64,000 bases of DNA from contig LCBT01000003.1 in assembly GCA_000997385.1 (NCBI GenBank), positions 192,892-256,891 on the forward strand, in the 5' to 3' direction. The stretch comes from Candidatus Daviesbacteria bacterium GW2011_GWA1_41_61. GTDB lineage: Bacteria > Patescibacteriota > Microgenomatia > Daviesbacterales > UBA10151. The notes beneath the pieces were generated by a model. That model saw only the letters and a program-made list of their open reading frames with translations, did not search any database and was not told where the DNA came from. Of this stretch, positions 8,936 to 60,510 are shown piece after piece (position 1 is the first letter of the stretch; every line of letters starts with the position of its first letter). The position numbers and the translations under genes are program-made.

Positions 8936-8982
8936 ATTTAGCCTTGAAAGTTATCTATAAAAAGCATAGAATTATTTGTCCG

Positions 8983-9740: not shown

Positions 9741-9856
9741 CCCGCATCCAAGCTGGAGTCATTAGAACTCCTTTCGGAACTCTTTGGCATCAGGCATCAA
9801 AGAGCTAACTTTTACCGGAATATTGCTGCTACCTGTTCCATGAAAAAGGAGATTGA

Positions 9857-10135: not shown

Positions 10136-10327
10136 CACTAATCTGGACAAGTCAGGAGAAGAATTTCTGAAGAAACAAGGTGTTCAAATTAGGGAAAAAC
10201 ATGATTTTGCATCTTTCTTCAGAGATAATCCTGACGCAGAAGCATTCTATTCTGGCCCCAATGTTTTTAGAGATTCAACTATAGTTGTCCAAAGTGCTTC
10301 TGATGGTGCTAAGAGTATGAAATAATG

Positions 10328-29452: not shown

Positions 29453-29475
29453 TCATAGGGAAATTGTAGCACTTT

Positions 29476-32591: not shown

Positions 32592-32678
32592 GGGCGGGTG
32601 GCGAAACTGGCAGACGCGCTACGTTCAGGTCGTAGTTCCAGCAATGGAATGCAGGTTCAACTCCTGTCCCGCCCACCA
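32592..32678 (+). tRNA. tRNA-Leu (anticodon CAG), CCA encoded
   Basis: Acceptor GGGCGGG/CCCGCCC, anticodon loop TTCAGGT, long variable arm. Confidence 0.85.
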
Positions 32679-32679
32679 A

Positions 32680-32766
32680 GCCGGGGTGGCGAAACTGGTA
32701 CACGCGATAGATTGAGGTTCTATTGCCGCAAGGCTTGCAGGTTCAACTCCTGTCCCCGGCACCATG
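32680..32766 (+). tRNA. tRNA-Leu (anticodon GAG), CCA encoded
   Basis: Acceptor GCCGGGG/CCCCGGC, anticodon loop TTGAGGT. The 3' half is identical to tRNA-Leu(TAG). Confidence 0.85.
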
Positions 32767-32774
32767 GTATAATG

Positions 32775-32850
32775 GACTCGTAGCTCAGTTGGTTAGAGCG
32801 TCTCATTTACACTGAGAAGGTCGAGGGTTCAAGTCCTTCCGAGTCCACCA
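32775..32850 (+). tRNA. tRNA-Val (anticodon TAC), CCA encoded
   Basis: Acceptor GGACTCG/CGAGTCC, anticodon stem TCTCA/TGAGA, loop TTTACAC. Confidence 0.85.
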
Positions 32851-32853
32851 TCT

Positions 32854-32926
32854 GCCTCAGTTGCCAACGTGGTCAAGGCGGCGGTCTGAAGAACCGTTTA
32901 TGTGGGTCCGATTCCTACCTGAGGCA
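32854..32926 (+). tRNA. tRNA-like gene, predicted anticodon GAA (Phe), with a non-canonical D-arm and T-loop
   Basis: Acceptor GCCTCAG/CTGAGGC (7 bp), anticodon stem GCGGT/ACCGT with loop CTGAAGA. Only a 3-bp D-stem. T-loop TCCGATT lacks the TTC. Confidence 0.45.
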
Positions 32927-32936
32927 CAAAGTAGGT

Positions 32937-47543: not shown

Positions 47544-48698
47544 CTAAGGTTTAATTTTTCGAATCGATGGATCGCGTCCTGGATGAAAACGCAAGTACAG
47601 TCCTAGTAAGAACATTAAAGCACTGATGATGGTCAAGCCTAAGATGGTATAATCTCCGCTGATAGGTAAGACCTCCCCTTCCTCAGCGGCAGCTGCCAGG
47701 ACTTCACCGGCCGGTTGTTGTGGAGCGCTGACTGCAGCTTGTTGAGCAGCTGGTTGAGATGGCGGTTGAGCAGGAGGTTGGGCAGGCTGCTCTTTTTCCT
47801 CCTTTTCCTCATGAGGAGTAATAATGGCCTCTTCTTCCGGACCAATTCTGACTAACTTAATGTTCATCGGACCATTTTCTATGATTGCCTCAAAATCAAT
47901 ATCCCCTGTCTTAATTGATACATCTCCCGAGTTTCCTTCAGCCTCATTATTTCCGGTGTCAGCATCGATATCGACTTCGTCTTCAACATCGGCTCTGTTA
48001 TCTAAAACTACACTAATGTCATTATCTTCATTAACTTTGATGGAGTTGTCAGAGTCTGAGCCATTATCAGCAACCTTTATTGAGATTTCCTTACAGCAAG
48101 ACTCGATATCAACTGAATCAATATTGATATTTTTACTTCTAATCTCTACCCGGCCTTCAATATCCCCGCTGTCAATGGAAACATCTCCGCTGTTTCTATT
48201 GGCGCTGTTACCGCCGGTATTGGCATTAACATCTATGTCATTATTAATTTCTGCCCGTTGATCTATCGAAACATTGGTTTGATTAGAACTGTTTATTTCA
48301 ATATTGTTGTCCGAATCTGAACCGTTGCCGGAAATAGTAGCTTCAGTGGGATTACTGCTGCAACAGGCAATATCAACTGTGGAAACGTTAGCTTGGTTAC
48401 TAACTTCAGTAGTAGTGTTGATATCTCCCGTTTGTATTGAGGCGTCACCCGAGTTGTCAGAGGCACTGTTATTACCACTGTCAGCTGCTTGCTGGACGTT
48501 ACTTCTGATATCAGCATTATTGGATTGTTCAACTGTGGTGTTGGTATCCGAACTTATGGAGATCTGATTGTCAGAGTCTGAGCCGTTACCGGTGATTATT
48601 AGCTCTTCTGCCTGAACATAGGGAGAAAATCCTACCATGATGATTAAAGTTAAAGTAATAGTTAATATCAGTCGGCTGTAACATTTTCCGGTTATCAT
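47544..48698 (-). CDS. Secreted tandem-repeat surface protein (3 x ~88-aa repeats) with a C-terminal LPISG, hydrophobic, basic sorting-signal-like tail
   Basis: Signal peptide. Repeats ITGNGSDSDNxI...ADTGNN...GDVSIxTGDI, each with a CC pair. PAQPPAQPP linker. Tail VLPISGDYTILGLTIISALMFLLGLYLRFHPGRDPSIRKIKP. Confidence 0.65.
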   Translation of the reverse strand: MITGKCYSRLILTITLTLIIMVGFSPYVQAEELIITGNGSDSDNQISISSDTNTTVEQSNNADIRSNVQQAADSGNNSASDNSGDASIQTGDINTTTEVSNQANVSTVDIACCSSNPTEATISGNGSDSDNNIEINSSNQTNVSIDQRAEINNDIDVNANTGGNSANRNSGDVSIDSGDIEGRVEIRSKNINIDSVDIESCCKEISIKVADNGSDSDNSIKVNEDNDISVVLDNRADVEDEVDIDADTGNNEAEGNSGDVSIKTGDIDFEAIIENGPMNIKLVRIGPEEEAIITPHEEKEEKEQPAQPPAQPPSQPAAQQAAVSAPQQPAGEVLAAAAEEGEVLPISGDYTILGLTIISALMFLLGLYLRFHPGRDPSIRKIKP

Positions 48699-48776: not shown

Positions 48777-51041
48777 TTATCTTACTCTGCCATAATCTCT
48801 AAGCTTTTTAGTTGCCAGTGTCAGTATTAACAGAAGTGGAGCCAAAGGTAGAAGCCAAGCTAAATTAAAGGTAATTGTTTTGGCTTCGTTTTGTGTCCCT
48901 TTAGTCAGTGTTACCGCTTGTCCACCGGAAGTTTCTTCAAAGCTTTCCCCGGCTACTTCGGCAGCATCTTCTGAATCATTATTTGAATATATCAATCCTC
49001 CGGTGTGAAGGATTTTTTTAATTGGTTCAGCTACGGCTGAGGCAACTGAGGTATTGGTATTATTAGCTGGAGCTGATTGATTATTTTGGCTGTTGGAATT
49101 ACTGAGAGCAGTTTGGTTAGATTGCTGATTTCCTTGCTCAACTGGATTATTGCCAGCCTGAGTTGTGTTTTCAGTTTGGACCTCTTTTTGATATCCGGGT
49201 CCGACGAAATCCCCAATCCATTTGCCGAAGACATTGATAGTGACGACTGTCAGCCTGCCACCCCCCACAATATTGTTATTGACGAAGTTAACTAAATTGG
49301 CCACGATATTGGCATCACCGGTGGTAATAGATGAATTTCCGCCGGTATTTTTAGAAGCGCTGTTACCGCCGGTATTGGCAAAAAGATTAATGTTATTTAA
49401 AATTTTGGCTACATTATTTTGGACGGTGGTATTACTTGCAGTTTGATCTATGGAGGCTGTATTTTGGGAATCTGAACCGTTCCCTTGATTGGTAGCGGTA
49501 ATATCACCGCTACTGTTTATAGTAAACTGGGTTCCTTTTGACCCGGCATAATTGGTGCCATAAGAGGAGCCAATGATTTTACCGACCCATTCCCCCGCCT
49601 CATTGACCAAAACTAACCACCAGTCTCCACCGGTTATATTGGAGTTGGCGATATTTAAAGTTTGGCTGTCAACATTGGCATCACCGGTTTGGATTTGAGA
49701 GCTGCCTCCGGTATTTTTATTGGTCTCGTTGTCTCCGGTGGCGGCTTGGAGGTTTAAGTTGTTTTCAATTTGAGCAATATTAGTTTGGAAAGTTTGATTA
49801 GTTGAGTCCTGATCTAAAGTTGCCGTGTTTTGGGAGCCAGATCCGTTATCTGTATTAGAAACTGTGGTAGTGGAGGTAGTTCCTAATACAGGTAAGATAA
49901 TATCTCCTATTAAATCTCCGAAGATATTGACAATACCCAAGACCACTTGGCCGGCGATATTGTTATTAATAAAGTTTAAAACATTGGCGGCAGCATTAGC
50001 ATCGCCGGTAGTAATGGTTGAATCTCCGCCGGTATTTTTATCGGCATCATTATCGCCGCTGTTAGAGGATAAAGTCAGGTTATTTTCTAAAGTAGCATCG
50101 TTATTTTGAAAAGTTTGACTGTCGCTAGTTTGTTCCACCTGAGCGGAGTTAGTTGAATCTGTGCCGTTATCAGTATTGGCGACCAAGGTGTCTGAAAAAG
50201 CAGAACACCCTAAAACACAGCCGGCAGCTAAATTTAATATCAGATCACCATTTTGATCATCTACTACGTTAAATTCAGAGACAGCCACCCCGGCTAAATT
50301 GGTATTTAGGGCGGTAATAAGGTTAACTGTAGTATTGGCATCACCGGTGTCGATACTTGAGCTGCCGACATTTTCCGAAGTGGAATTTTTACCGGTGTTG
50401 GTATCAAGGTCTAAGCTATTTTGTGCATCAGCGAGGTTATTTGAAACGGTGGTAATACCGGAATCACTATTTAAGGAAGCAGAGTTATCAGATCTTGAGC
50501 CGTTATCAGTATTTTCTACAGTTACACTGCTGTCACCCGGTAAGGTTGCCGCAGAATAGTTTTCATTAGCAGATGTAGTTACTGTAGCTGTGTTTAAGGC
50601 ATTTCCGGTGGTAATTTGAGGGTCCCCTACCTCCCCGTCTTTGGACTCCCCTCCGGTAGTTTGAGAGACTTCATTGTCTATCGGTGGTGTTGTATTTGAT
50701 GAGTTGGAAGTATCTTCAGTTAAGCTTTCAGTTGGGGTATCAGAGGGGGTGGAAGGCGGGACAAGTGTTTCTTCTGGCAGTGATTCTGTAGAAGTGGGGG
50801 ATATTTCTTTTAAAGTAGAGTTTTCAGTTGGAGCAGGCGATGGTTCAAGCAGGGATTCTAAAGTAGGCGCTTCTGGCGGTGTTGGTTCAGCCGGAGGAGG
50901 TGGTGGTGCGGACTGCTCTGCCCTGGGTGTTGGTTCAGCCGGAGATGTAGGCGCTTCCAAGGCTGTGACTGTAGCTACTTGACTAAAAAGTAAAGTAATA
51001 ACTGTTATTACTGATAAAGTTTTTTTAAGTTTTTTGATCAT
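48777..51041 (-). CDS. Large secreted tandem-repeat protein (754 aa) of the same repeat family, Pro/Thr-rich N-terminal stalk, C-terminal TM anchor
   Basis: Signal peptide. PT-rich region. At least 5 repeats NTDNGSxSxN...NTGGxS.I.TGDAN...N.NN.IxG. C-terminus LAWLLPLAPLLLILTLATKKLRDYGRVR. Confidence 0.65.
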   Translation of the reverse strand: MIKKLKKTLSVITVITLLFSQVATVTALEAPTSPAEPTPRAEQSAPPPPPAEPTPPEAPTLESLLEPSPAPTENSTLKEISPTSTESLPEETLVPPSTPSDTPTESLTEDTSNSSNTTPPIDNEVSQTTGGESKDGEVGDPQITTGNALNTATVTTSANENYSAATLPGDSSVTVENTDNGSRSDNSASLNSDSGITTVSNNLADAQNSLDLDTNTGKNSTSENVGSSSIDTGDANTTVNLITALNTNLAGVAVSEFNVVDDQNGDLILNLAAGCVLGCSAFSDTLVANTDNGTDSTNSAQVEQTSDSQTFQNNDATLENNLTLSSNSGDNDADKNTGGDSTITTGDANAAANVLNFINNNIAGQVVLGIVNIFGDLIGDIILPVLGTTSTTTVSNTDNGSGSQNTATLDQDSTNQTFQTNIAQIENNLNLQAATGDNETNKNTGGSSQIQTGDANVDSQTLNIANSNITGGDWWLVLVNEAGEWVGKIIGSSYGTNYAGSKGTQFTINSSGDITATNQGNGSDSQNTASIDQTASNTTVQNNVAKILNNINLFANTGGNSASKNTGGNSSITTGDANIVANLVNFVNNNIVGGGRLTVVTINVFGKWIGDFVGPGYQKEVQTENTTQAGNNPVEQGNQQSNQTALSNSNSQNNQSAPANNTNTSVASAVAEPIKKILHTGGLIYSNNDSEDAAEVAGESFEETSGGQAVTLTKGTQNEAKTITFNLAWLLPLAPLLLILTLATKKLRDYGRVR

Positions 51042-51122: not shown

Positions 51123-52403
51123 TTAAGCAGAAAGATGCAGTCCTTCAAGGAGTTGGCTAAGTAAGTCCTCGAGTTCGTCAAGGTCAAAATCAAAGTCAAA
51201 ATCTACATCCTCGCCAAAGAGATTAACGTTAGCACTGTTGCTAGCTTCAACCTTAGTCTCGGCATCACCGGTACTGGTTTCAACATCACCATCGGTGTTA
51301 TCGTTGGCTTTGTTATCACCAGTAAAAGCGTCTGCCCAAACCTCATTTTCCACCTCACAACCTCTGTGGTCTCCATGTTGGTTCCCATCTAAGAACAAGT
51401 CATGGTTTTCAGGTTTGTTGTCCTTTCCGCAGTTGCTTTGAAAGACCTCTAATTCGTTTTCTAACTCAGCTTCAATCTCATTGTCAGAACCCGAACCGTT
51501 ACCAGAAATTTCAGCTTCTACGTCGAATAAACAACAATCCACATCAGCGGCGTTAAAGTTAACGGCGTTGTCAACTTCAACCCGGGTTTGGGCGTCGCCG
51601 GTGTCAATGGAAACATCACCATCGGTATTATCGTTGGCGTCATTGTTACCGGTGTTTGAATCTGCCCAGATACCGTTTTTGATATCTGCTTTATTTTCCT
51701 GAACCACCAAGACCGATCGGTCAAGATCAAGGTCAATAGTGTTATCGGAGTCTGAACCGTTTCCCGAGATCTCCAGATCTACCCCGTTTTCATCACCGTT
51801 GCCGCCGATATTGGCAATATTGGCGTTAGCGCGGTTTTGAACATCCACGGTGGTCGAAGCATCTCCAGTATCAATGGAAACATCACCATCGGTATTATCG
51901 TTGGCGTCATTGTTACCGGTGTTTGAATCTGCGCTAACCCAGTTTCTGATATCAGCGTTGTTTGATTGAAAAACTTTAGTTTCGTTTTCGGACTCAAGCT
52001 CCACATTGTTATCGGAGTCTGAACCGTTACCTGAGATCTCCACATTAGTGTCACCATTACAGGTTCCACAATTTTCCAAGTCAGCTACGTTTAAGTTAGC
52101 TTGATTTTGGACTTCTACTCTAGTGGTGGCATCTCCGGTATCTACTTGCACATCCCCGCCGGTGTTATCATTGGCATCGTTATTGCCGGTATCTGCACTT
52201 GCGTTAATTCGGTTAGTGATTTCAGCATTATTTTCCTGAACAACAGTTGTGTTGTTATTTGTAGTAACATCAACAGTACTATCAGAATCCGAGCCGTTAC
52301 CGGTAATCTCTAGGGTTGTAGTAGCCAAAGCTGGTGTGGCCAGAGCGTAAAGGAGAAGTGATGCGGTAGCAATCGCTGTAGCTATCTTTTGTCTTATCAT
52401 TTT
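51123..52403 (-). CDS. Secreted tandem-repeat protein (start MIRQK with a strong RBS), same GNGSDSDN/ADTGNN/TGDA repeat family, acidic C-terminus
   Basis: Signal peptide ATASLLLYALATPALA. Four or more repeats ISGNGSDSDNxVE...ADSNTGNNDANDNTDGDVSIDTGDA. Cys pairs. C-terminus DFDFDFDLDELEDLL without a TM. Confidence 0.65.
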   Translation of the reverse strand, partial: KMIRQKIATAIATASLLLYALATPALATTTLEITGNGSDSDSTVDVTTNNNTTVVQENNAEITNRINASADTGNNDANDNTGGDVQVDTGDATTRVEVQNQANLNVADLENCGTCNGDTNVEISGNGSDSDNNVELESENETKVFQSNNADIRNWVSADSNTGNNDANDNTDGDVSIDTGDASTTVDVQNRANANIANIGGNGDENGVDLEISGNGSDSDNTIDLDLDRSVLVVQENKADIKNGIWADSNTGNNDANDNTDGDVSIDTGDAQTRVEVDNAVNFNAADVDCCLFDVEAEISGNGSGSDNEIEAELENELEVFQSNCGKDNKPENHDLFLDGNQHGDHRGCEVENEVWADAFTGDNKANDNTDGDVETSTGDAETKVEASNSANVNLFGEDVDFDFDFDLDELEDLLSQLLEGLHLSA

Positions 52404-52692
52404 CTCACCCCCTTTCTTTCCTGAAAAAATCCGCTTATGGCGGAGCACTTCATTGACCATATCTTAAAAATTTCCTTTTAAAAAAGAATTAAGATCTGGT
52501 AAGAGTTTAGTAATAAGGTAACCTATAGAGGCTAATGGAAAGTTTAACTGTTTAAAGGAATAGACTAAGAACTAAGGAATAATAAGTAATATTATGGGGA
52601 ATGTGGTTTACGTTATAGCAAAACAATGAGGCCTATATATGTAACGCTTGATTTAATAGTTGTTTGGATTAGCGGTGGGGATTTAGACTCTA

Positions 52693-53289
52693 TCAGAACT
52701 GAAGATCAAAAGTTGTTTTTTCTCCGTTGATCTCCCCCACTTGGACCTGAAAATTTTTTTGCCCCTCATTTACCGGAAAACCAAGTCTGGTATATTTAGT
52801 AGAGATAGGCTGAGCTTCTACCGGATCGTTATGAATATCCGGGGCCAGCCACTCCTGTCCCCCATTGGCTGAGATTCGCAGGAAATCCCGGGTGTTGACC
52901 TGAATTTTTTGTTGGCCTTCGTTTATCAACCTCAAGTTAAATATCAAAAAGATCCGTCCTGCTACAGCCGTGGCTTTCTGTCCTTTAACCACTATTTCCT
53001 TCCTCACTTCAGCTCCTTCAATATTATATTTTAGAGTTCCTACTTGTTTACCCTGGCTGTCATTTATCGGAAAGCTGAATTCTTTATTTAAAGATGTTTT
53101 GGCGGTTGGTTCAGCTATTTGCAGGGATTTATTAGGGATGGGAGCAGTTAAAGAAAAATTATCCTGAGAATTTTTTAATAGGCCGGGTCGAGTACCCAGA
53201 AAGATCAAACTTCCTGCTGCTAAAATGCCTAACCCGATAAAAAGGTATTTTTTAGATAACCTGATAGAGGGAATTCTAGCTGTTAACAT
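52693..53289 (-). CDS. Membrane-anchored hypothetical protein (DUF4352-like beta-sandwich)
   Basis: N-terminal TM helix, then a ~150-aa beta-rich domain. Confidence 0.5.
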   Translation of the reverse strand: MLTARIPSIRLSKKYLFIGLGILAAGSLIFLGTRPGLLKNSQDNFSLTAPIPNKSLQIAEPTAKTSLNKEFSFPINDSQGKQVGTLKYNIEGAEVRKEIVVKGQKATAVAGRIFLIFNLRLINEGQQKIQVNTRDFLRISANGGQEWLAPDIHNDPVEAQPISTKYTRLGFPVNEGQKNFQVQVGEINGEKTTFDLQF

Positions 53290-53707
53290 TTAATTTAATT
53301 TTTACCTCCTGCTCACGGTTATTTTTAATAATTTCTACCTCTACTTTTTGTTGACCGCGGGAGCCAACCAGTTTATTTAAAACATCACCATTAGTTTTGG
53401 TTTGGACAAAAGAGGTAGTATTCATCCCCAAAGCTTTAATTTTTTCTTTATACCAATCAGTAATAACTTGGGGATCATCAAAGCTTATAAAAGCTTGTTG
53501 GTTTTGGTCATTAATAATATTTCGGGAATTAGGATACTTCAGACCAGAGATATTACTATCTGAACCCCCTTGATTGTTAGGAGTAACTGTCGGTGAGACA
53601 GGGCTTGGGCTAAGTTCTTTTCTGAAACCGGCAGTTTGGTTTAAATAGGCTGCGGAGATCACGATCAAGGTAAATAAAATTAAGACAATTAAGATTTGCG
53701 GGCTCAT
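53276..53707 (-). CDS. Membrane-anchored hypothetical protein (143 aa)
   Basis: N-terminal TM helix. Overlaps the downstream ORF by 14 nt. Confidence 0.45.
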   Translation of the reverse strand: MSPQILIVLILFTLIVISAAYLNQTAGFRKELSPSPVSPTVTPNNQGGSDSNISGLKYPNSRNIINDQNQQAFISFDDPQVITDWYKEKIKALGMNTTSFVQTKTNGDVLNKLVGSRGQQKVEVEIIKNNREQEVKIKLNVNS

Positions 53708-53781: not shown

Positions 53782-55083
53782 CTAACTGCAGCTTTGAGTC
53801 GGGTTGTATTTAGAGCCGTAAGTACCTACAGAGTTGCCGCCATCATTTGTAGACATATTATTATCACAAACTTTACCCTGAGGTGTTCTTTGGAATTTTA
53901 TACCCCCTGATTTATTATTCTTGATAATATTTTGGTAAATATTATTGTTAATACCTTGAGTCTCTTTATCTCCACCTAGTCTAATTCCTGCGCCGCTATT
54001 TCCGTAAATTTCATTATTTTTAAAAGTATTTCCCTCTCCCCGGGAATCCATCCCCCCGGAATTACTGTCTTTTTGACCGGTACACTTATTGTTCTCCATC
54101 ATGTTTGCTGAGGCAGCTTCTTTAATGTCAACACACTCATTTCCTTGAGTGTCAATAGTATTGTCATGGATAAAGTTGCCGTTTGATTGATCCGGATCAG
54201 AAGTAGGGTTTTTTCCGTCACCCAGCTGTTCCGGAGCAGTGCCAATATAGATCCCTTCCCCATTTTTACCACCGCCATTGAATTTAAAATCATAAACTCC
54301 ACAATTTGTGATAGTATTGCCGGCAATTTCATTATTTTGAGCAAAATATCTTAGTCTGATACACTCTCCCCCAGCATTTTTAAGAGTCATTCCCAAAACC
54401 TTCAGCCCTGTAACTCCGGATTTAGTTTCTTTGCCTTGTACATAAAGTAACTTGTCACGGTATCCGGAAGATGAAGATGAGGATCCAAAAAGACCATCAA
54501 TAGTAAAACCCCTAAGTGTTATAGAATCATGGTTTATTTCAAAAATCCGGCCTTTCCCCCCGCCTTTGATAACTGCTTCTTTAGGCCCGGAAATAATAAT
54601 TGGTTTATCAGAAGTTCCATTTCTTTTGGTGATTATATCCTGAGAATATGTCCCCGGGGCTAGGGCAATTGTCTCTCCTCCCTGGGCTAAGTCGACTGCC
54701 TTCTGAATTGTCTTAAAGGGTTTATCTGCGGATAGTCCATTATTTTCATCGCTTCCGGAAGGATTAATATAATAACTTTTTAAAGCGGTTGGTGCAGAAA
54801 CGGGCTGAGCAGCCGCTGAAAGCGTTGTGGTGGGTGTTGCTTGGACTATATTACTGCTGTTGATAATGACTGTGCTGGCGTTTACCACAACGGTCCCGGT
54901 AGTGGTAATATTTTGAGTAGCAGCCTCTTGGGCATCAGCTCCAGTTCTAAAGATAATTTGCTGTAGTAAGAGAGTAGAGATTACAGTAGATATTAGTATA
55001 AGACTATACTTAGCAGAACTAGCTGAAATCTTTTTAAGTCTACCAAGGAAAAAATATTTCATCCGGTGGGCAAGTTTTAACAT
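53782..55083 (-). CDS. Secreted right-handed parallel beta-helix (pectate-lyase-fold) protein
   Basis: N-terminal anchor or signal. SYYINPSGSDENNGLSADKPFKTIQKAVDLAQGGETIALAPGTY is the typical beta-helix enzyme N-cap. Many N/G-rich turns follow. Confidence 0.65.
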   Translation of the reverse strand: MLKLAHRMKYFFLGRLKKISASSAKYSLILISTVISTLLLQQIIFRTGADAQEAATQNITTTGTVVVNASTVIINSSNIVQATPTTTLSAAAQPVSAPTALKSYYINPSGSDENNGLSADKPFKTIQKAVDLAQGGETIALAPGTYSQDIITKRNGTSDKPIIISGPKEAVIKGGGKGRIFEINHDSITLRGFTIDGLFGSSSSSSGYRDKLLYVQGKETKSGVTGLKVLGMTLKNAGGECIRLRYFAQNNEIAGNTITNCGVYDFKFNGGGKNGEGIYIGTAPEQLGDGKNPTSDPDQSNGNFIHDNTIDTQGNECVDIKEAASANMMENNKCTGQKDSNSGGMDSRGEGNTFKNNEIYGNSGAGIRLGGDKETQGINNNIYQNIIKNNKSGGIKFQRTPQGKVCDNNMSTNDGGNSVGTYGSKYNPTQSCS

Positions 55084-55178
55084 TGGTTAGTGGAATTTGA
55101 CGCTTAATTTAATAAGCGGCTGAGATTGTAAGTTCAATTTAATAATTTGTCAAGTTTTTTGTAAGGACAAGATAGGGG

Positions 55179-58130
55179 TTAGTTGGGGTGGATGTCTTTA
55201 CCGTTTTGGGCAATAGTATTGGGACCTAAGTAGTTAATATTACCAGCTGAAGTTTTGGAATAGATTCCATAGGTGCTATTGTTGATAATTTGATTCATGG
55301 TAAATCTATTTTCTGAAGCGTTCTCTACCAAATATAGACCTATTTGGTTGTTGGTAATTAAATTACCGGTGACAAGATTTTCTTTAGTTTTGATATAGAC
55401 AGCTTGGTGATTGTTGCTAATTTTATTATTTAAAACAGTATTGTTATTAGAACCATCATAAATGTAAAAGCCATATTGTTTATTGTCTTCAATCTGATTC
55501 CCCTCAAATAAATTATCCATTGATGCCTTATTTATCCTAACCCCTCTTTGGTTTTTAGAAATAGTGTTGTTGCGGATAGTGTTATTGCTGGATTGATAGA
55601 CAACTATACCGTCAAGATTTCCACTAACGGTATTGTTTTCCACTAAATTATTATTAGAATTTTCATGAAGCATGATTCCATGGAGTTTATTATTATAGGA
55701 GAGGTTATTTCTAATGATGTTATTAAAACATCTTTTGGAAAAAATTAACCCATGGTTTCCGTTGTTATAAAATTTATTATTCTCCACGATAAAGTTATTG
55801 GAGTCATCGTGAGGGTCTAAACCATATTGAATGTTATCGAAAAATTCATTCCCCCTCCAAAGCATCGAAGTGGTTCCAAAAGTATAAGCTCCGAAATAAT
55901 TGTGGTGAAATTTACTGCTTAAAACTTCACCGGAGAGTAAATGTGTCCCCAATTTACCGTTACTCATCCGCCAGGCAACACCATAAACAGAGTCTTCAGT
56001 CGGTGCCGTTCTCCTATAGCCCAGATAAGCCAATTCCGAATCATAGATATCCATCCGGGAAAAATCCTTAACCAGGATATAGCTTCTGCCGTTTTTATAA
56101 TCCTTATCGAAATCATTATTATCCTCATCCCATGAGGTAATTTTGACACCCTTAATTAAAACCAGACCGTTATTAGATTTTAAATTTACAAAACCATTCT
56201 TATTACTGGCCAGTTTAAGCCAAGTCACTTCATCTTTATTTAAAGTTAACATTACTCCGTTTCTAACCCACAGGTTAGACCGCAAGATCCAATTTTGGGG
56301 GGATGTTTCTTCTAACTTTGTTTTTCCTACACTGGATTGGATATTCTTTAAAGTGACTTGTTTTCCTCTCCCCTGGACGATGATGGTGTTAGATGGTTGA
56401 TCAAAACTTATTTGCAAAATATCGGGGTTCTTTTTGGTATAGGAATAATTTGGCTGGAAATCAATAGAAAAATTCGACCTGGGGATATTTAAAATATAAC
56501 CGGGACTGATCTGATTCCAATTAGGCAAAATATTAATATTAGCCTTAAGAAGACTATCTGCGGTAATTCCATTAGCTTTGGCTATACGGGCCAAGGAATC
56601 CCCGGGCTTAACCGCATACCGGGTTACCAGCATCCGGTTAATGTTATCTAAAGATGAAGCTCCCGCTACCAATAATGTTTCATCAGTCTCAATATTAGTC
56701 AGGGTTACTAAGTTATTTGGTTGATTTGGTTGGATTGAAGATAAGACAGGTTGAAACTGTTGCCGGTACCAAAAAATTCCCCAAGCTAGGACTGCAAAAA
56801 CTAAAACAGTTGCTCCCCAGGCGGGAATTTTAGTTAAAAATTTAAATTGAGGAAGCCGGGAAGTATCCCATCTGGTTATCCAGCCCTGGGTATTTAAAGT
56901 AAACAGGGCATAAATTTTCATCCCGGCTGAGACAAAGCTAAGGAGAATGAAAGCAGGCAAGACAGTAATATCCTGAGGCCTTCTTTTAAGATGAGGATAT
57001 AATTTAATAGTTCTGCTTATAAACCACCAGACAAAAATAGCCAGTGCTAATGTCCAATGCTGTAGGGTTAAAGCAATCATAAAAAAGAGTGGGCTAAGCA
57101 GTATAGTAAATCCTTGAATAACCTTATCAACTTGAAAATAAGCCAAAGAGGGGTGGTGAAAAACCCAGCCATGATAGATTGCCCGAAGGTCTGCTCTTAA
57201 GGCATTCCTGGTCCAGCGGAGCCGTTGTTTTAAATAAGATTTTAAATCTTCAACACCCGGGGTAAAGACATGGGAAGTCATCTGATAGGCAACTTTCCAT
57301 CCAGAGGCCAGTACTAAATAAGTAAGTCTTTTATCATCTCCGCTGACTACTTTTTGCCCCCAAAAAGTTTCATTTACCAAATCTGGGATCATTGGAGTTA
57401 TCACATCCTTCCTATAAAAGGCAGTTCTCCCGGATAAACAGATTAGTGCATCACCGGCTGCTCCCAAAAATGGGAACTCATCAAAATAGCGGAGATCAAG
57501 TTGAATATCAAAGATTTTTTGGGCCAGTGTTTTAGGCTGCAAGACATTTTGTCTGGTAGCAACCCCGGCAATTTGGGGATTCTCAAAGGGAATCAAGCCA
57601 TTTTTTAAAGTATCCTCCGACCAGATAGTATCACTATCAACTAAAGCTACTACCTCTCCTATGGATGCTTTTATTCCATCAGCTAAGGCTTCCCTTTTCC
57701 CATATTTTTGAGTGATAATTAATCTAGCTTTGGAAAAAACTTTTTGAAAATCCTCAAAGATTTTAAGACATTTTATATCTGTATAATCAATAACTGCAAT
57801 AATTTCTTGGGGAGAATTTTTAGCCCAGGAAACTAGGGCATCAATAAAAACTTTGGGATTTTCATTATAGACCGGAGTAATTACAGAGACTGACGTTTTA
57901 AAATAACCTTTTTTAGGGTGATAAAATTGGGCCACTGTTTTTTTAAACAGCCATGTTCCCCATCTCCAAAGACCAATAATTCCCAGGGGTAAATAAAAAG
58001 TAACCCACTGCCAATAAGTGGTAAATACCCTGGTCAAAGATTCCGCTATCGGGCTGACAACTGGACTTATTGAGGGCAGTTCAAAGACAAATTTAATGTT
58101 GGATGGATCGGTCGGCCAGATAACGTCCAT
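55179..58130 (-). CDS. Fusion protein: processive family-2 glycosyltransferase (polysaccharide synthase, multi-TM) + LysM + C-terminal parallel beta-helix with AlgG/AlgE-type YG-x-DPHD motif (C5-epimerase/lyase-like)
   Basis: GT2: ISVITPVYNE, ALVDSDTIW (DxD), LKQRLRWTRN (QxxRW), 6-8 TM helices. LysM: YAVKPGDSLARIAKANGITADSLLKANINILP. Beta-helix: NIQYGLDPHDDSNN, then ~12 PbH1 repeats (NNxISNN...). Confidence 0.8.
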   Translation of the reverse strand: MDVIWPTDPSNIKFVFELPSISPVVSPIAESLTRVFTTYWQWVTFYLPLGIIGLWRWGTWLFKKTVAQFYHPKKGYFKTSVSVITPVYNENPKVFIDALVSWAKNSPQEIIAVIDYTDIKCLKIFEDFQKVFSKARLIITQKYGKREALADGIKASIGEVVALVDSDTIWSEDTLKNGLIPFENPQIAGVATRQNVLQPKTLAQKIFDIQLDLRYFDEFPFLGAAGDALICLSGRTAFYRKDVITPMIPDLVNETFWGQKVVSGDDKRLTYLVLASGWKVAYQMTSHVFTPGVEDLKSYLKQRLRWTRNALRADLRAIYHGWVFHHPSLAYFQVDKVIQGFTILLSPLFFMIALTLQHWTLALAIFVWWFISRTIKLYPHLKRRPQDITVLPAFILLSFVSAGMKIYALFTLNTQGWITRWDTSRLPQFKFLTKIPAWGATVLVFAVLAWGIFWYRQQFQPVLSSIQPNQPNNLVTLTNIETDETLLVAGASSLDNINRMLVTRYAVKPGDSLARIAKANGITADSLLKANINILPNWNQISPGYILNIPRSNFSIDFQPNYSYTKKNPDILQISFDQPSNTIIVQGRGKQVTLKNIQSSVGKTKLEETSPQNWILRSNLWVRNGVMLTLNKDEVTWLKLASNKNGFVNLKSNNGLVLIKGVKITSWDEDNNDFDKDYKNGRSYILVKDFSRMDIYDSELAYLGYRRTAPTEDSVYGVAWRMSNGKLGTHLLSGEVLSSKFHHNYFGAYTFGTTSMLWRGNEFFDNIQYGLDPHDDSNNFIVENNKFYNNGNHGLIFSKRCFNNIIRNNLSYNNKLHGIMLHENSNNNLVENNTVSGNLDGIVVYQSSNNTIRNNTISKNQRGVRINKASMDNLFEGNQIEDNKQYGFYIYDGSNNNTVLNNKISNNHQAVYIKTKENLVTGNLITNNQIGLYLVENASENRFTMNQIINNSTYGIYSKTSAGNINYLGPNTIAQNGKDIHPN

Positions 58131-59061
58131 AGGTTTTATCCCTTTTTGGCTGTGGCGTGTTTTTTTGTTTCTCCGGGTGTTTTTGGGCTATCTGTTCATT
58201 AACTTTAATGGTTTGCTTTAGCAAATCAGCTGAGAGACCGTTGTCTTCAACCCAACTTAAAAATGCCCGGGTATCTTTGGGAAGACAATTACCGCTAAAA
58301 GGGCCTTGGTCTTTTAATCCATAAAATGGGTTCCAATTTCCTTCCGCACTTTCTGCTACCAGGGGAAAGATTAGCTCTGGATCTAACCCGGCGTTTTGAG
58401 TAATCTGTCTCATTTCATTAAAGAAAGTAATTTTGACAGCATTAAAAAGGTTGTGGATATATTTTTGAATTTCTGCTTCTTGAAGTGAAACTCTATACTT
58501 GGGGCAATCAAAATCCTCGTAAATCTCCTCCAGTAAATTACCCGATCTGTGGTCATATTCTCCGATCACGATTACCCAAGATTTGAGGAAATCTTCATCA
58601 GCAAATCTCTCCCGTAGGTATTCTGGGTTCATACAGATTCCAAAATTTTTCCCCACACTTTTACCGGAGTATTTTTCGATAAGTTTAACAACCAGATTTT
58701 CAGTGGTTCCGGGTAAAACTGTGCTTTTGACTACCACCAAGTGGTATTTATTTAAAGCATATAACCTTTTGCCTAAATATTTAGAGGCTTCCTCCATCAT
58801 GTTTAAGTTAATCCGTTCATTTTCAGTGGGGGTGGGGACAGATAAAAAGGAGACATCGAAATCAAAAGTACCGTTTTTGAGCTCATCAGGGTGGTAAGCT
58901 TTAAAACCCTCCTCTCTTAATTTTTGGACCTTCAAGGGATTAATATCTAAAAAAGTCACGTTAAACCCTAAAGAAGAAAAACCTTTGCCGGTGGCTTGCC
59001 CCACAAATCCAGAACCAATGATGCAAATTTTTGGTTTTAATTTCTTCACCATTCTGTTCAT
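58093..59061 (-). CDS. Nucleotide-sugar 6-dehydrogenase (UDP-glucose/GDP-mannose dehydrogenase family), apparently lacking the C-terminal nucleotide-sugar-binding domain
   Basis: ICIIGSGFVGQATG Rossmann motif. NPEYLRE. Catalytic Cys in SGNCLPKD. Ends after the central domain (322 aa). 3' end overlaps the GT2 fusion gene by 38 nt. Confidence 0.75.
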   Translation of the reverse strand: MNRMVKKLKPKICIIGSGFVGQATGKGFSSLGFNVTFLDINPLKVQKLREEGFKAYHPDELKNGTFDFDVSFLSVPTPTENERINLNMMEEASKYLGKRLYALNKYHLVVVKSTVLPGTTENLVVKLIEKYSGKSVGKNFGICMNPEYLRERFADEDFLKSWVIVIGEYDHRSGNLLEEIYEDFDCPKYRVSLQEAEIQKYIHNLFNAVKITFFNEMRQITQNAGLDPELIFPLVAESAEGNWNPFYGLKDQGPFSGNCLPKDTRAFLSWVEDNGLSADLLKQTIKVNEQIAQKHPEKQKNTPQPKRDKTYGRYLADRSIQH

Positions 59062-59190: not shown

Positions 59191-60510
59191 CTATTTCTTA
59201 ATGATCGTAGTTAGACGAATTTGATAATCGCCATCTTCTAATAGATATGTAAGAAAGGTTTGCTGGGTAGTTTGATTATTTACTACGCTGGGGTACATGG
59301 CATTATCAGCTATTTTATTTTGAAAGATCTTCTCATTTAAGCGGTTTAATACCCTGATCAAAATTTGACCCTCAGAGGGATTTTCATTGGGAAAATCAGC
59401 CCTTTTGTTGCTTTCCATCCAAGTGATATAAACATTGTCTGACAAGTCACTCCCTACACTGGGAAAGAATTGATATGAACCAGAAGGAGAAACGAGCTTT
59501 GGCTTAGACCATTTATCCCCTTGGGAAAGGGAAATAAAAATTTGGCTTTTTCCTTTGTCTTGGTCAGGTGAACGCCAGACAGCAATGATCTGATTTTGAT
59601 TGGTAACTGCTGCACTGACATGCCGGGAGTCAAAGTTATTTTGGGAAATGTTCTCCCATTGACTCCACTTTATTCCGTCATCAGAAAAGGAATGCCAAAT
59701 TTGCTGATAAGGCTGATTAAAAGCAGAGTACATGAAAACATGCAGCCTTCCCTTATGATCTTCCAGGATGGTAGGCCGCGATTGTGAGTCATTGGAAGAT
59801 GGCTGGATGTTGATCCATTTTGACCAAGTATTACCCCCATCTTCTGAGCTGGAGAGTTTAATTTGCTGATTTTGATGTTCCATATCTTTTCCTTCCCAAA
59901 CAACATATATCTTGCCGTTTTTAGTGACTGCTATATCCGGATGTTCCTGCCATAAAGACTGATCTTTGAATCCTTCGACATAAGAAATATTAATTGCTTT
60001 ACTCCAAATTTGGCCACCATTTTGGGAACGGCTGTATTTAATTTGCCGGTCCCCTTCCCTTTCTTTGGAGTCAGCCCCATACCAGACAAGGTGAATATTA
60101 TTATCCGTATCAACAACTAAAGAAGGAACCCGTTGATTAGTCTTATTAGTTATTGATGAAATTGGTTGATCAGTATGAGTAACCTGCCATGTTCCAGTCC
60201 TTTCTTTGATCACCTTTGCCACATAGACCTGATAAATTTGATTAAACTTTTTCCGGTATCCGATATACAGATTTCCTTGTAAATCTTGAGCCATCTTTTT
60301 TTGTCCGCTATAGCCTAAAGCCCTTTCATCTTCAGTAGTATCTATGACGATAGTGGAAGAAACAACTACAGGTGGGTGCAACTTTTTTTCTTTTTGTCCC
60401 GCCGGCCATCCTTCATATAGAAAATAACTACTTATTATTAAGGCCAGCACAATTAATCCGTATTTGAATTTTGATGATTTCCATAAATTACTTAGGACGG
60501 GTGGAACCAT
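59191..60510 (-). CDS. Membrane-anchored BNR/Asp-box repeat (sialidase-like beta-propeller) protein
   Basis: Four S-x-D-x-G-x-T-W Asp-boxes (SRSQNGGQIWS, SSSEDGGNTWS, SFSDDGIKWS, SLSQGDKWS). N-terminal TM helix. Confidence 0.7.
   Translation of the reverse strand: MVPPVLSNLWKSSKFKYGLIVLALIISSYFLYEGWPAGQKEKKLHPPVVVSSTIVIDTTEDERALGYSGQKKMAQDLQGNLYIGYRKKFNQIYQVYVAKVIKERTGTWQVTHTDQPISSITNKTNQRVPSLVVDTDNNIHLVWYGADSKEREGDRQIKYSRSQNGGQIWSKAINISYVEGFKDQSLWQEHPDIAVTKNGKIYVVWEGKDMEHQNQQIKLSSSEDGGNTWSKWINIQPSSNDSQSRPTILEDHKGRLHVFMYSAFNQPYQQIWHSFSDDGIKWSQWENISQNNFDSRHVSAAVTNQNQIIAVWRSPDQDKGKSQIFISLSQGDKWSKPKLVSPSGSYQFFPSVGSDLSDNVYITWMESNKRADFPNENPSEGQILIRVLNRLNEKIFQNKIADNAMYPSVVNNQTTQQTFLTYLLEDGDYQIRLTTIIKK

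What the first reader, a model, noticed from the sequence alone, without database searches (positions are those of the whole stretch)
55179..58130. Single polypeptide combining synthase, LysM and AlgG-like beta-helix domains
Seen directly: the GT2 motifs (DxD in ALVDSDTIW, QRLRW) and 6-8 TM helices are followed by a LysM module. A ~330-aa C-terminal domain follows with NIQYGLDPHDDS and about a dozen NN-x-I-x-NN parallel-beta-helix turns. In alginate systems the synthase (Alg8) and the periplasmic C5-epimerase (AlgG, catalytic DPHD) are separate proteins. A covalent synthase-epimerase (or synthase-lyase) fusion would couple polymerisation and modification at the membrane. LysM suggests tethering to peptidoglycan.
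Basis: partly seen in the sequence, partly recalled or inferred. Interest (0 to 1): 0.75.

Follow-up and report, generated by a model that had tools for sequence, protein, structure and literature searches.

The report
Fused polyuronate synthase and C5-epimerase
One 983-residue membrane protein of an uncultivated (CPR) bacterium joins a hyaluronan-synthase-like sugar polymerase to an outward-facing alginate-epimerase-like domain, and with its constant neighbour, a short sugar dehydrogenase of the brown-alga type, it looks like a previously undescribed minimal pathway for an alginate-like polymer.

Summary
ORF 55179..58130 (-) encodes 983 aa: one N-terminal TM helix, a GT2 synthase domain (DSD, GDD, QRLRW, WITRW gating loop), three more TM helices, a linker, LysM, and a ~420-aa parallel beta-helix whose best sequence and fold match is the alginate C5-epimerase AlgG. 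AlgG's catalytic Tyr, His (in DPHD) and Arg align and are invariant in 45 homologues.

It is not an artefact. An independent metagenome contig carries the identical ORF, and about 194 full-length homologue clusters share the architecture (Microgenomates, Parcubacteria, Chloroflexota).

The synthase half is hyaluronan-synthase/NodC-like; no Alg8 match was found. It lacks the last TM helix of HAS, which puts LysM and the beta-helix outside the cell.

A short (~300 aa) NDP-sugar dehydrogenase lacking the nucleotide-binding domain lies within 300 bp in 47 of 54 well-flanked loci. It has the same layout as the biochemically proven short GDP-mannose dehydrogenases of brown algae. PL7 or PF05426 alginate-lyase-family genes, a second beta-helix protein and a BNR propeller often accompany it.

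Best reading: a single-polypeptide polyuronate (probably mannuronan) synthase with a tethered C5-epimerase. Polymer identity and epimerase-versus-lyase chemistry are inferred. I found no literature describing it.

The parts
55179..58130 (-). Whole ORF, 983 aa: synthase - LysM - AlgG-like beta-helix fusion
   Evidence: identical ORF on an independent contig
57945..58013 (-). N-terminal TM helix (res 40-62), N-terminus outside, followed by a K/R-rich cytosolic loop
   Evidence: AF2 helix 25-67; family loop statistics: 0.6 K+R before it, 4.6 after it
57174..57899 (-). Cytosolic GT2 (GT-A) catalytic domain plus interface helix IFH2 (res 78-319). Contains DSD 57630..57638, GDD 57333..57341 and QRLRW 57213..57227
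   Evidence: Pfam and NCBIfam; CvHAS alignment; motif residues invariant in 45 homologues; coordinates verified
56757..57152 (-). Membrane region (res 327-458): TMH3, TMH4, interface helix IFH3, cytosolic gating loop WITRW (56868..56882), TMH5. No equivalent of HAS TMH6
   Evidence: AF2 secondary structure; colinear alignment with CvHAS 364-465; HAS topology from PMC11750622; no further hydrophobic segment in 45 of 45 homologues
56625..56756 (-). Low-confidence, probably flexible extracellular linker (res 459-502)
   Evidence: pLDDT below 50 at 461-471 and 480-493
56478..56624 (-). LysM module (res 503-551)
   Evidence: PF01476 E=7.5e-8, 32.6 bits against a cutoff of 20.9; degenerate in the Chloroflexota homologue
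55182..56438 (-). AlgG-like right-handed parallel beta-helix (res 565-983). Catalytic motif YGLDPHDD at 55803..55826; K799-R800 at 55731..55736
   Evidence: NF038177 AlgG E=1.3e-38; PDB 4ozz/4nk6 E~1e-32 with DPHD aligned; Foldseek top hit 4nk6, TM 0.72 normalised to AlgG; pLDDT mostly above 95
58093..59061 (-). Short NDP-sugar 6-dehydrogenase (322 aa). Has the NAD-binding and central domains with catalytic Cys (SGNCLPKDT) but no C-terminal nucleotide-binding domain. Overlaps the synthase start by 38 nt. Probable GDP-mannose dehydrogenase
   Evidence: Within 300 bp of the fusion in 47 of 54 well-flanked loci; all 70 complete neighbouring ORFs are 273-354 aa. Short brown-algal GMDs: PMC4782291
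59191..60510 (-). Membrane-anchored BNR/sialidase-like beta-propeller protein (439 aa), a recurrent partner of unknown role
   Evidence: PF13088; orthologues at 36-47% identity next to the fusion in L007, L010, L002 and L001; present in 21 of 89 loci
53782..55083 (-). Secreted or anchored second beta-helix protein (DUF1565/Pel9A-like, 433 aa), a candidate depolymerase
   Evidence: Pfam; 60% identical orthologue downstream in L009; fused onto the synthase-epimerase in P0004 (65% identity); present in 29 of 89 loci, 28 of them downstream
35532..37364 (-). Alginate-lyase-family (PF05426) protein, 610 aa, 18 kb away. Possibly related polyuronate metabolism; linkage to the locus not shown
   Evidence: PF05426 E=4.5e-62; PDB 3nfv alginate lyase E=1.2e-32; not found next to the fusion in other loci

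Best explanation
The gene encodes a bifunctional, single-polypeptide exopolysaccharide machine.

Proposed steps:
1. The cytosolic GT2 domain, built like a class I hyaluronan synthase, polymerises an activated uronic acid and threads the chain through its own membrane channel.
2. The protein has one TM helix fewer than HAS after the cytosolic gating loop, so the chain leaves the membrane on the outside.
3. A flexible ~45-residue linker and a LysM module, probably holding the protein to peptidoglycan, tether an AlgG-type beta-helix next to the channel exit.
4. That domain acts on the nascent polymer by abstracting the C5 proton of uronate residues (His774 as base, Tyr769 with water as acid, Lys799/Arg800 neutralising the carboxylate). 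For this protein the most likely outcome is epimerisation.
5. The translationally coupled upstream gene, a short dehydrogenase of the brown-alga GDP-mannose-dehydrogenase type, supplies the uronic-acid donor.

The product would most likely be a mannuronan that is partly converted to guluronate, i.e. an alginate-like polymer. The neighbouring beta-helix protein (PL7 lyases in other genomes) would trim or release the polymer.

Shown: domain identities, motif conservation, conserved synteny, fusion integrity. Inferred: topology (strongly supported), substrate, epimerase rather than lyase, and the LysM ligand.

My sub-probabilities: synthase with an extracellular catalytic AlgG-like domain, 0.9; uronate polymer, 0.8; mannuronate rather than a glucuronate-containing polymer, about 0.55; epimerase-only for this protein, about 0.6.
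For: Domains and folds. The AF2 model has mean pLDDT 87.6. The top Foldseek hits are AlgG, then Chlorella-virus HAS.

Catalytic residues invariant in 45 homologues: D165, D167, G264, D266, Q302, R305, W306, W417, T419, R420 in the synthase; Y769, D772, H774, D775, K799, R800 in the beta-helix. They map onto AlgG Tyr314/His319/Arg345 and onto the HAS DxD, GDD, QxxRW and WGTR motifs.

Topology: the HAS order IFH2, TMH3, TMH4, IFH3, gating loop, TMH5 is reproduced and TMH6 is missing. Positive-inside statistics agree, and no later hydrophobic segment occurs in 45 of 45 homologues.

Uronate substrate: the dehydrogenase is present in 50 and adjacent in 47 of 54 well-flanked loci; across all 89 loci it was detected in 73, on the same strand in 71. 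PL7 lyases with RSELR/QIH/YFKAG motifs occur in related loci. A PF05426 lyase is encoded in the window.

Mannuronate: the dehydrogenase's best PDB hit is AlgD GMD (E=1.7e-44, 38% identity). Its short architecture and motif spacing match the biochemically active Saccharina GMDs of 315-320 aa (PMC4782291). Brown-algal GMDs are reported to be closest to a Woesebacteria (CPR) protein (PMC11468063).

Epimerase rather than lyase: the residue before the catalytic Tyr is Gln here, not the Arg that confers lyase activity in AlgE7. Separate candidate lyases are encoded alongside.

Peptidoglycan target: a class A PBP and MurT/GatD genes are in the window.
Against: No biochemical data exist for any member of the family.

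All characterised close relatives of the GT2 half (HAS, NodC, PgaC, chitin synthases) use UDP-sugars, whereas mannuronan needs GDP-mannuronate.

The dehydrogenase matches an archaeal UDP-glucose dehydrogenase (3vtf) about as well as it matches AlgD.

The PL7 and PF05426-type lyase families also contain glucuronan lyases (my own knowledge of CAZy), so they do not separate mannuronan from glucuronan.

I could not compare directly with brown-algal GMD or Alg8 sequences.

The AlgG NCBIfam score (133 bits) is far below the equivalog cutoff (700).

In 96 of 120 CPR homologues the lyase-associated position is Arg or Lys, so lyase or dual activity may be common in the family.

Confidence: 0.58

Rival explanations
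1. The polymer contains glucuronic acid rather than mannuronic acid. It would be either a beta-1,4-glucuronan or a hyaluronan-like GlcNAc-GlcA copolymer made from UDP-sugars. The tethered beta-helix would convert GlcA to L-iduronic acid, or cleave the chain.
For: The GT2 half is closest in sequence and fold to hyaluronan synthases, which use UDP-GlcA, and to NodC. JGI names several family members 'hyaluronan synthase'. The dehydrogenase scores about equally against an archaeal UDP-glucose dehydrogenase and hits the NCBIfam AglM and TuaD UGDH models. The HAS residues that sandwich the GlcA carboxylate (Lys177, Arg341) correspond to the invariant K145 and R305. LysM could then bind a GlcNAc-containing product.
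Against: The short dehydrogenase architecture is that of proven GDP-mannose dehydrogenases, and AlgD is the top PDB hit. Every characterised DPHD beta-helix epimerase acts on mannuronan. The associated lyases are PL7/PF05426 types, not the PL8 hyaluronate-lyase type. The gating loop has Ile where HAS needs Gly; CvHAS G455A is inactive. K145 and R305 equivalents are common to many QxxRW GT2 enzymes, so they are not diagnostic.
Confidence: 0.22
2. The beta-helix is mainly a lyase, or a dual lyase/epimerase like AlgE7. It would cut the nascent chain to set its length or release it from the synthase, rather than mainly changing its composition.
For: Epimerases and lyases of this fold share the same first catalytic step and residues. 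In 96 of 120 CPR homologues the residue before the catalytic Tyr is Arg or Lys, the position that confers lyase activity in AlgE7.
Against: The window's protein has Gln at that position and the Chloroflexota branch has Glu or Gln. The domain is much closer to AlgG, an epimerase without lyase activity (E~1e-32), than to AlgE-type enzymes (E~4e-8). Separate candidate lyases (PL7 or the DUF1565/Pel9A-like beta-helix) are encoded next to the fusion in 38 of 54 loci. The AlgE7 rule comes from a distant subfamily.
Confidence: 0.13
3. The beta-helix is catalytically inert. It would serve as a carbohydrate-binding guide or scaffold that conducts the polymer through the wall, comparable to the structural role AlgG also has in Pseudomonas (my own recollection).
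For: AlgG protein, independently of its activity, protects nascent alginate in Pseudomonas (my own knowledge, not tested here). The NCBIfam score is far below the equivalog cutoff.
Against: Tyr, Asp, His, Asp and Lys/Arg at the AlgG catalytic positions are invariant in 45 homologues spanning 50-58% identity, and are kept in the 43%-identical Chloroflexota branch. That is not expected for a purely structural domain.
Confidence: 0.05
4. The fusion is an assembly or frameshift artefact that joins two genes.
For: None found.
Against: The identical ORF is present on an independent contig. About 194 full-length homologue clusters and 80 further metagenome loci have the same colinear architecture. 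The junction is a conserved TM helix plus linker.
Confidence: 0.01

Closest known systems
AlgG, periplasmic poly(beta-D-mannuronate) C5-epimerase of Pseudomonas (PDB 4NK6/4OZZ; NCBIfam NF038177)
   Same: Right-handed parallel beta-helix. About 300 residues align at E~1e-32. The DPHD motif is in register, with the Tyr, His and Arg equivalents conserved. It is extracytoplasmic and acts on a polymer as it is exported.
   Different: AlgG is a free periplasmic protein within a roughly 12-gene envelope-spanning apparatus (Alg8/44/K/E/X/L and others, from my own knowledge). Here the domain is covalently attached to the synthase through a TM helix, a linker and LysM, in organisms that probably have no outer membrane (my own knowledge). 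The score is far below the AlgG equivalog cutoff.
Class I hyaluronan synthases (Chlorella virus CvHAS, Xenopus HAS1; PDB 7SP7, 8SMM)
   Same: Best sequence and fold match for residues ~40-460. The DxD, GDD(K/R), QxxRW and W-x-TR gating-loop motifs are shared, as is the order of interface and TM helices. It is presumably a self-contained polymerase and translocase.
   Different: It has one N-terminal TM helix instead of two and lacks TMH6, so the C-terminus is outside. The gating loop reads W-I-T-R-W rather than WGTR(G). About 20% identity. Substrates unknown. It carries a 520-residue extracellular extension.
Alg8/Alg44 mannuronan synthase of Pseudomonas and Azotobacter
   Same: Proposed to carry out the same reaction (GT2 polymerisation of a uronic acid that is then C5-epimerised) next to a sugar 6-dehydrogenase gene, as algD sits next to alg8.
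   Different: No Alg8-type hit was obtained in NCBIfam or the PDB. No PilZ/Alg44, AlgK, AlgE or AlgX partners lie nearby. If it makes mannuronan, it is a different GT2 lineage.
Short GDP-mannose 6-dehydrogenases of brown algae (Ectocarpus GMD; Saccharina SjGMD1/2, 320/315 aa)
   Same: The neighbouring dehydrogenase is 322 aa, with GxGxVG at residue 16 and (S/G)GxCLPKD at 256, and no C-terminal nucleotide-binding domain. This is the same layout as the biochemically active algal enzymes. A CPR (Woesebacteria) protein is the reported best bacterial match of the algal GMDs.
   Different: A direct alignment with algal sequences could not be made here. The activity of the bacterial enzyme is unknown.
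AlgE1-7 secreted mannuronan C5-epimerases and lyases of Azotobacter
   Same: Same fold and the same catalytic Y-x-x-D-P-H-D/E arrangement. Variability at the residue preceding the Tyr echoes the epimerase/lyase switch of AlgE7.
   Different: Much weaker similarity (E~4e-8). The AlgE enzymes are Ca-dependent, secreted, modular (A and R modules) and not membrane-tethered.

Membership tests
AlgG-type mannuronan C5-epimerase | Right-handed parallel beta-helix fold | tested here: met
   AF2 model with pLDDT mostly above 95 in res 570-983; Foldseek top hit 4nk6, E=1.1e-18, TM 0.72 normalised to AlgG
AlgG-type mannuronan C5-epimerase | DPHD motif with the catalytic His, the preceding Tyr and the carboxylate-neutralising Arg at the AlgG positions | tested here: met
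   The phmmer alignment puts YGLDPHD on AlgG's YGIDPHD. R800 lies 26 residues after the His, as Arg345 does in AlgG (roles from PMC4444821). These residues are invariant in 45 homologues
AlgG-type mannuronan C5-epimerase | Score above the NCBIfam NF038177 equivalog cutoff (700 bits) | tested here: not met
   132.9 bits, covering profile positions 120-407 of 519. It is a homologue, not an AlgG orthologue
AlgG-type mannuronan C5-epimerase | Converts M to G in polymannuronate | not testable with these tools
   Needs an enzyme assay or NMR
Class I hyaluronan synthase | GT2 GT-A domain with DxD, GDD(R) and QxxRW motifs | tested here: met
   DSD 165-167, GDDKR 264-268, QRLRW 302-306. Aligned to CvHAS and invariant in the family
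Class I hyaluronan synthase | WGT(S/R)G gating loop between IFH3 and TMH5 | tested here: inconclusive
   W417, T419 and R420 are invariant and in register, but the Gly is replaced by Ile/Val/Leu in nearly all members. CvHAS G455A is inactive
Class I hyaluronan synthase | [quoted passage not shown] | tested here: not met
   One N-terminal helix. TMH3, TMH4 and TMH5 are present and TMH6 is absent in 45 of 45 homologues
Class I hyaluronan synthase | Alternating transfer of GlcNAc and GlcA | not testable with these tools
   The residues contacting the GlcA carboxylate (K177 and R341 in CvHAS) are conserved, but they are not specific to HAS
Alg8 mannuronan synthase | Sequence membership in the Alg8 lineage, and dependence on the PilZ protein Alg44 | tested here: inconclusive
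   No Alg8-named family appears among NCBIfam hits down to E=1, and no Alg8 structure among the PDB hits. No Alg8 reference sequence was available for a direct comparison. No PilZ-domain gene was seen in 9 inspected neighbourhoods
Short (brown-alga-type) GDP-mannose 6-dehydrogenase (neighbour gene) | About 315-320 aa, with the NAD-binding and central domains only and GxGxVG plus GGxCLPKD motifs | tested here: met
   322 aa, carrying PF03721 and PF00984 only. Motifs at residues 16 and 256, against 14 and 259 in SjGMD1. At least 120 homologue clusters all lack PF03720. The 70 complete neighbouring ORFs are 273-354 aa
Short (brown-alga-type) GDP-mannose 6-dehydrogenase (neighbour gene) | Closer to algal and bacterial GMDs than to UGDHs; GDP-mannose specificity | tested here: inconclusive
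   AlgD is the top PDB hit, but by a negligible margin over one archaeal UGDH. No algal sequences were available. Activity cannot be tested here
LysM | Pfam PF01476 above the gathering score | tested here: met
   32.6 bits against 20.9. About half of the CPR homologues keep a Pfam-detectable LysM; the Chloroflexota branch does not

The most novel reading that the evidence does not exclude
This CPR/Chloroflexota module would be a second, Alg8-independent route to alginate: a short GMD, a HAS-like GT2 and a DPHD epimerase. It would be the bacterial relative, possibly the donor lineage, of the brown-algal alginate pathway. Brown-algal GMDs are short and are reported to be closest to a Woesebacteria protein, and the brown-algal mannuronan synthase is still unidentified and not Alg8-like. 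If so, the GT2 half of this fusion would point directly to the long-sought mannuronan synthase family of brown algae.
Probability: 0.15. Interest if true: 0.9.

Novelty: new variant of a known kind. Interest (0 to 1): 0.7.

Why it matters
In Pseudomonas, alginate polymerisation and epimerisation are coupled only through a fragile multiprotein complex that has resisted reconstitution (my own knowledge). A natural single-chain synthase-epimerase would be a tractable model for how polymer synthesis, translocation and modification are coupled. It would also be a compact part for engineering tailored polyuronates.

It further suggests that uncultivated CPR bacteria and Chloroflexota make an acidic, alginate-like surface polymer with only two or three genes, which bears on how these tiny episymbionts attach to hosts and build biofilms.

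Because the partner dehydrogenase is of the short brown-alga type, the GT2 half gives a concrete, testable candidate family for the unidentified brown-algal mannuronan synthase.

Tried and rejected
- The genome-contig scan with the single protein returned only 4 loci because the patterns were too query-specific.
- The AFDB50 fold library was unavailable.
I used DSSP helices, HAS homology and charge bias instead.
- I tried to decide UDP-GlcA/GlcNAc versus GDP-ManA from HAS substrate-contact residues. The conserved equivalents (Y88, E90, K145, R305, W306) are shared by many GT2 synthases, so this was not diagnostic.
- I tried to obtain brown-algal GMD sequences or the Tenhaken 2011 paper. The paper is not held and the supplementary alignment is an image, so no direct alignment could be made.
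- The promoter/terminator scan was not above shuffled expectation, so operon boundaries are undetermined.
- I tested whether the Arg/Gln position before the catalytic Tyr tracks with LysM presence or with paralogue pairs. No clear pattern emerged, and my LysM regular expression was too strict.
- The window's small downstream ORFs (53276..53707, 52693..53289) have no Pfam hits and no relatives in the 89 other loci. I rejected them as conserved parts of the system.
- The PF05426 lyase was not found near the fusion in other loci, so its link to the locus remains circumstantial.
- Eight of the ten literature searches looked for a prior description or for source papers on the parts. None described this fusion or alginate synthesis in CPR bacteria.


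Full report
OBSERVATION

The window contains an uninterrupted 983-codon ORF at 55179..58130 on the minus strand. Pfam finds three kinds of module:
- a GT2 domain (Glyco_tranf_2_3, res 81-309, E=2.8e-25);
- a LysM module (505-550, above the gathering score);
- Beta_helix/NosD repeats (E=4e-30).

NCBIfam's best hit for the C-terminal half is the AlgG mannuronan C5-epimerase model (res 589-876, E=1.3e-38). At 133 bits it is far below the 700-bit equivalog cutoff. The N-terminal half is closest to NodC (E=7e-29) and more weakly to PgaC.

Three details need correcting:
- the beta-helix domain is about 420 aa, not ~330;
- there are four membrane spans plus about three interface helices, not 6-8 spans;
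- the synthase is HAS/NodC-like, and no Alg8 match was found.

NOT AN ARTEFACT

A separate 19-kb JGI metagenome contig is 99.993% identical over 14.2 kb and encodes the identical 983-aa protein in the same gene order.

Two homologue searches returned about 194 full-length clusters (850-1308 aa) with the same colinear architecture. Those that carry names come from:
- Daviesbacteria, Levybacteria, Roizmanbacteria, Amesbacteria and Chisholmbacteria (Microgenomates group);
- Andersenbacteria and another Parcubacteria-group genome;
- Caldilineaceae, Ardenticatenaceae and other Chloroflexota.

The 43%-identical Caldilineaceae protein aligns end to end. A metagenome scan found 279 more matching stretches. 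Database names are generic ('right-handed parallel beta-helix repeat-containing protein', 'glycosyltransferase', JGI 'hyaluronan synthase').

THE TWO CATALYTIC HALVES

Against the PDB, residues ~590-890 match AlgG (4OZZ/4NK6) at E~1e-32. YGLDPHD lies on AlgG's YGIDPHD. AlgE4 and AlgE6 match far more weakly.

AlgG's proposed catalytic Tyr314, His319 and Arg345 (PMC4444821) correspond to Y769, H774 and K799/R800. R800 lies exactly 26 residues after the His, as Arg345 does in AlgG. All of these are invariant in a 45-sequence alignment, and the YG-x-D-x-HD motif is present in nearly all homologues.

The GT2 half matches Chlorella-virus and Xenopus hyaluronan synthases best (E~7e-15). D165/D167 (DxD), G264/D266 (GDD), Q302/R305/W306 (QxxRW) and W417/T419/R420 are invariant.

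An AlphaFold2 model built from the alignment has mean pLDDT 87.6. Its best Foldseek hits are AlgG (TM 0.72 normalised to AlgG) and then CvHAS (0.66), ahead of cellulose and chitin synthases.

TOPOLOGY

Published HAS structures have this order: TMH1-2, the GT domain, IFH1-2 (QxxRW), TMH3-4, IFH3, a cytosolic WGTR gating loop that inserts into the active site, then TMH5-6 (PMC11750622).

The model's helices map onto that order and are colinear with CvHAS residues 364-465:
- 296-319 corresponds to IFH2;
- 327-355 and 359-376 correspond to TMH3 and TMH4;
- 385-410 corresponds to IFH3;
- the low-confidence loop 411-429 (GWITRW) corresponds to the gating loop;
- 430-458 corresponds to TMH5.

There is no TMH6, and none of the 45 homologues has another hydrophobic segment. 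Mean K+R counts across the family fit this picture: 4.6, 2.5 and 4.3 in the three predicted cytosolic loops, against 0.2 and 0.6 in the predicted outside segments.

The invariant Trp and Arg of the gating loop must reach the cytosolic active site. The single following helix therefore places the linker (res 459-502, low pLDDT), LysM and the beta-helix outside the cell. This is a strong inference, not a measurement.

The window also encodes a class A PBP and MurT/GatD. The organism therefore makes peptidoglycan for LysM to bind. LysM is not universal. It is Pfam-detectable in roughly half of the CPR members and degenerate in Chloroflexota, and one variant carries SH3_3 instead.

GENOMIC CONTEXT

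The upstream gene (58093..59061) overlaps the synthase start by 38 nt. It encodes a 322-aa member of the UDP-glucose/GDP-mannose dehydrogenase family. It has the NAD-binding and central domains and the catalytic Cys motif, but no C-terminal nucleotide-binding domain. This is a real lineage:
- at least 120 homologue clusters are 288-346 aa and all lack PF03720;
- the 70 complete neighbouring ORFs in related loci are 273-354 aa.

Counts from the 54 related loci with at least 1.5 kb on both flanks:

| Partner gene | Loci (of 54) |
|---|---|
| Short dehydrogenase present | 50 |
| Short dehydrogenase within 300 bp | 47 |
| PL7 lyase or the extra DUF1565/Pel9A-like beta-helix protein | 38 |
| BNR-propeller or fn3 protein | 32 |

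Across all 89 loci the dehydrogenase was detected in 73, on the same strand as the fusion in 71 of those.

The PL7 'Alginate_lyase2' genes carry canonical RSELR/QIH/YFKAG motifs. The extra beta-helix protein is the gene at 53782..55083 in the window. In homologue P0004 (1308 aa) that protein is fused onto the end of the synthase-epimerase, at 65% identity to the window's separate gene. This is gene-fusion evidence of a functional link.

The BNR proteins next to the fusion are orthologous across phyla at 36-47% identity. The window also encodes a PF05426 alginate-lyase-family protein 18 kb away (E=4.5e-62; PDB 3NFV E=1e-32). That gene is not syntenic elsewhere.

WHICH POLYMER

An AlgG-type mechanism needs a C6 carboxylate, and a sugar 6-dehydrogenase is the constant partner. 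A uronate polymer is therefore well supported.

Evidence for mannuronate:
- The dehydrogenase's top PDB hit is P. aeruginosa GDP-mannose dehydrogenase AlgD (E=1.7e-44, 38% identity over 220 aa).
- Its truncated architecture and motif spacing match the biochemically active Saccharina GMDs (320 and 315 aa, GxGxVG at ~14, GGxCLPKDV at ~259; PMC4782291).
- Brown-algal GMDs are reported to be most similar (40%) to a Woesebacteria (Microgenomates-group CPR) protein (PMC11468063).
- All characterised DPHD beta-helix enzymes act on mannuronan or alginate.

Evidence against:
- The GT2 half's characterised relatives use UDP-sugars.
- One archaeal UDP-glucose dehydrogenase scores as well as AlgD.
- PL7-type and PF05426-type lyase families also include glucuronan lyases (my own knowledge).

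I put mannuronan at about 0.55 and a GlcA-containing polymer at about 0.25-0.3.

EPIMERASE OR LYASE

The two reactions share the proton-abstraction step. In AlgE7 the Arg immediately before the catalytic Tyr is the main lyase determinant, and R148G gives a pure epimerase (PMC8824271).

At that position:
- the window's protein has Gln;
- AlgG has Val;
- the Chloroflexota branch has Glu or Gln;
- 96 of 120 CPR homologues have Arg or Lys.

Together with the separate candidate lyases encoded alongside, this modestly favours epimerase for this protein. It leaves open lyase or dual activity elsewhere in the family. The rule comes from a distant subfamily, so it is weak.

COMPARISON WITH KNOWN SYSTEMS

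The parts are known kinds: a processive GT2 synthase, a DPHD C5-epimerase, LysM and a short GMD. What differs:
- the synthase and the modifying enzyme are covalently fused by loss of the last HAS helix;
- a HAS-like GT2, with no detectable Alg8 relationship, is used;
- the whole system is reduced to two to four genes, in lineages that probably lack an outer membrane (my own knowledge);
- no Alg44, AlgK, AlgE or AlgX equivalents were seen nearby.

The beta-helix domain family is itself large (572 clusters at E<=1e-30). It also occurs as stand-alone secreted proteins and in giant repeat proteins.

The literature searches found no description of the fusion or of alginate/mannuronan synthesis in CPR bacteria. 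The library lacks most subscription journals, so prior work cannot be excluded.

VERDICT

I rate it a new variant of a known kind, with interest 0.7.

The most novel reading still open is that this is an Alg8-independent alginate pathway related to the brown-algal one. Its GT2 half would then identify the missing algal mannuronan synthase family. I put that at about 0.15 probability, with high interest if true.

Noticed in passing
window 58093..59061 (-); homologues P0196-P0315: A large family of ~300-aa UDP-glucose/GDP-mannose-dehydrogenase homologues lacks the C-terminal nucleotide-binding domain altogether. It has the same truncated layout as the brown-algal GDP-mannose dehydrogenases. How such enzymes hold the nucleotide sugar is unexplained.
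   Followed up: yes
window 35532..37364 (-): A 610-aa protein has a strong PF05426 alginate-lyase-family domain (res ~256-594). It sits behind a ~250-aa N-terminal region containing an HEGVH (HExxH-like) motif, with no obvious signal peptide. It is not syntenic with the fusion in other loci.
   Followed up: partly
window 47544..48698, 48777..51041, 51123..52460 (-): Three paralogous Asn/Asp/Gly/Ser-rich repeat proteins with no Pfam hits. The units read like 'GNGSDSDN...TG(G/N)N.A..N.GD..I.TGDA'. At least two have hydrophobic C-terminal anchors, and one gene has internal ~185-nt DNA repeats at ~80% identity. They are probably surface proteins just downstream of the locus.
   Followed up: no
residue 768 of the fusion (window 55827..55829); homologues P0001-P0178: The residue before the catalytic Tyr is Arg or Lys in 96 of 120 CPR homologues, Gln in this protein, and Glu or Gln in the Chloroflexota branch. 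In AlgE7 an Arg at this position switches on lyase activity.
   Followed up: yes
P0004 (1308 aa) compared with window 53782..55083: One homologue has the downstream DUF1565/Pel9A-like beta-helix protein fused to the end of the synthase-epimerase (65% identity to the window's separate gene), giving a three-enzyme polypeptide. A gene-calling or frameshift artefact on that contig was not excluded.
   Followed up: partly
L005 3511..6432 and 8001..10937; 5 of 89 loci: Some genomes carry two paralogous copies of the synthase-beta-helix fusion within a few kb of each other. One copy follows an fn3 protein and the other follows the dehydrogenase.
   Followed up: partly
window 59191..60510 (-); L001, L002, L007, L010: A membrane-anchored BNR/sialidase-like beta-propeller protein is a conserved neighbour of the fusion from CPR to Chloroflexota (36-47% identity). 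Its role is unknown.
   Followed up: partly
window 12980..15499 (+), 28734..29636 (-), 30428..31762 (-): Genes for a class A penicillin-binding protein and a MurT/GatD-like pair are present. This indicates a peptidoglycan wall, probably with amidated stem peptides (my own knowledge), in this CPR organism.
   Followed up: no
window 55125..55153 (-): A near-consensus sigma-70-type promoter (TTGACA, 17 nt, TACAAT; 11 of 12 matches) lies between the fusion's stop codon and the downstream beta-helix gene. The scan as a whole was not above chance.
   Followed up: no
window 32592..32927 (+): A tight cluster of five tRNA genes (Leu-CAG, Leu-GAG, Val-TAC, Phe-GAA and a preceding Leu). The window holds nine tRNA genes in all.
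   Followed up: no
P0163 (Chloroflexota, 1131 aa): One variant of the fusion carries an SH3_3 (PF08239) domain rather than LysM. This suggests the wall-binding module is interchangeable.
   Followed up: no
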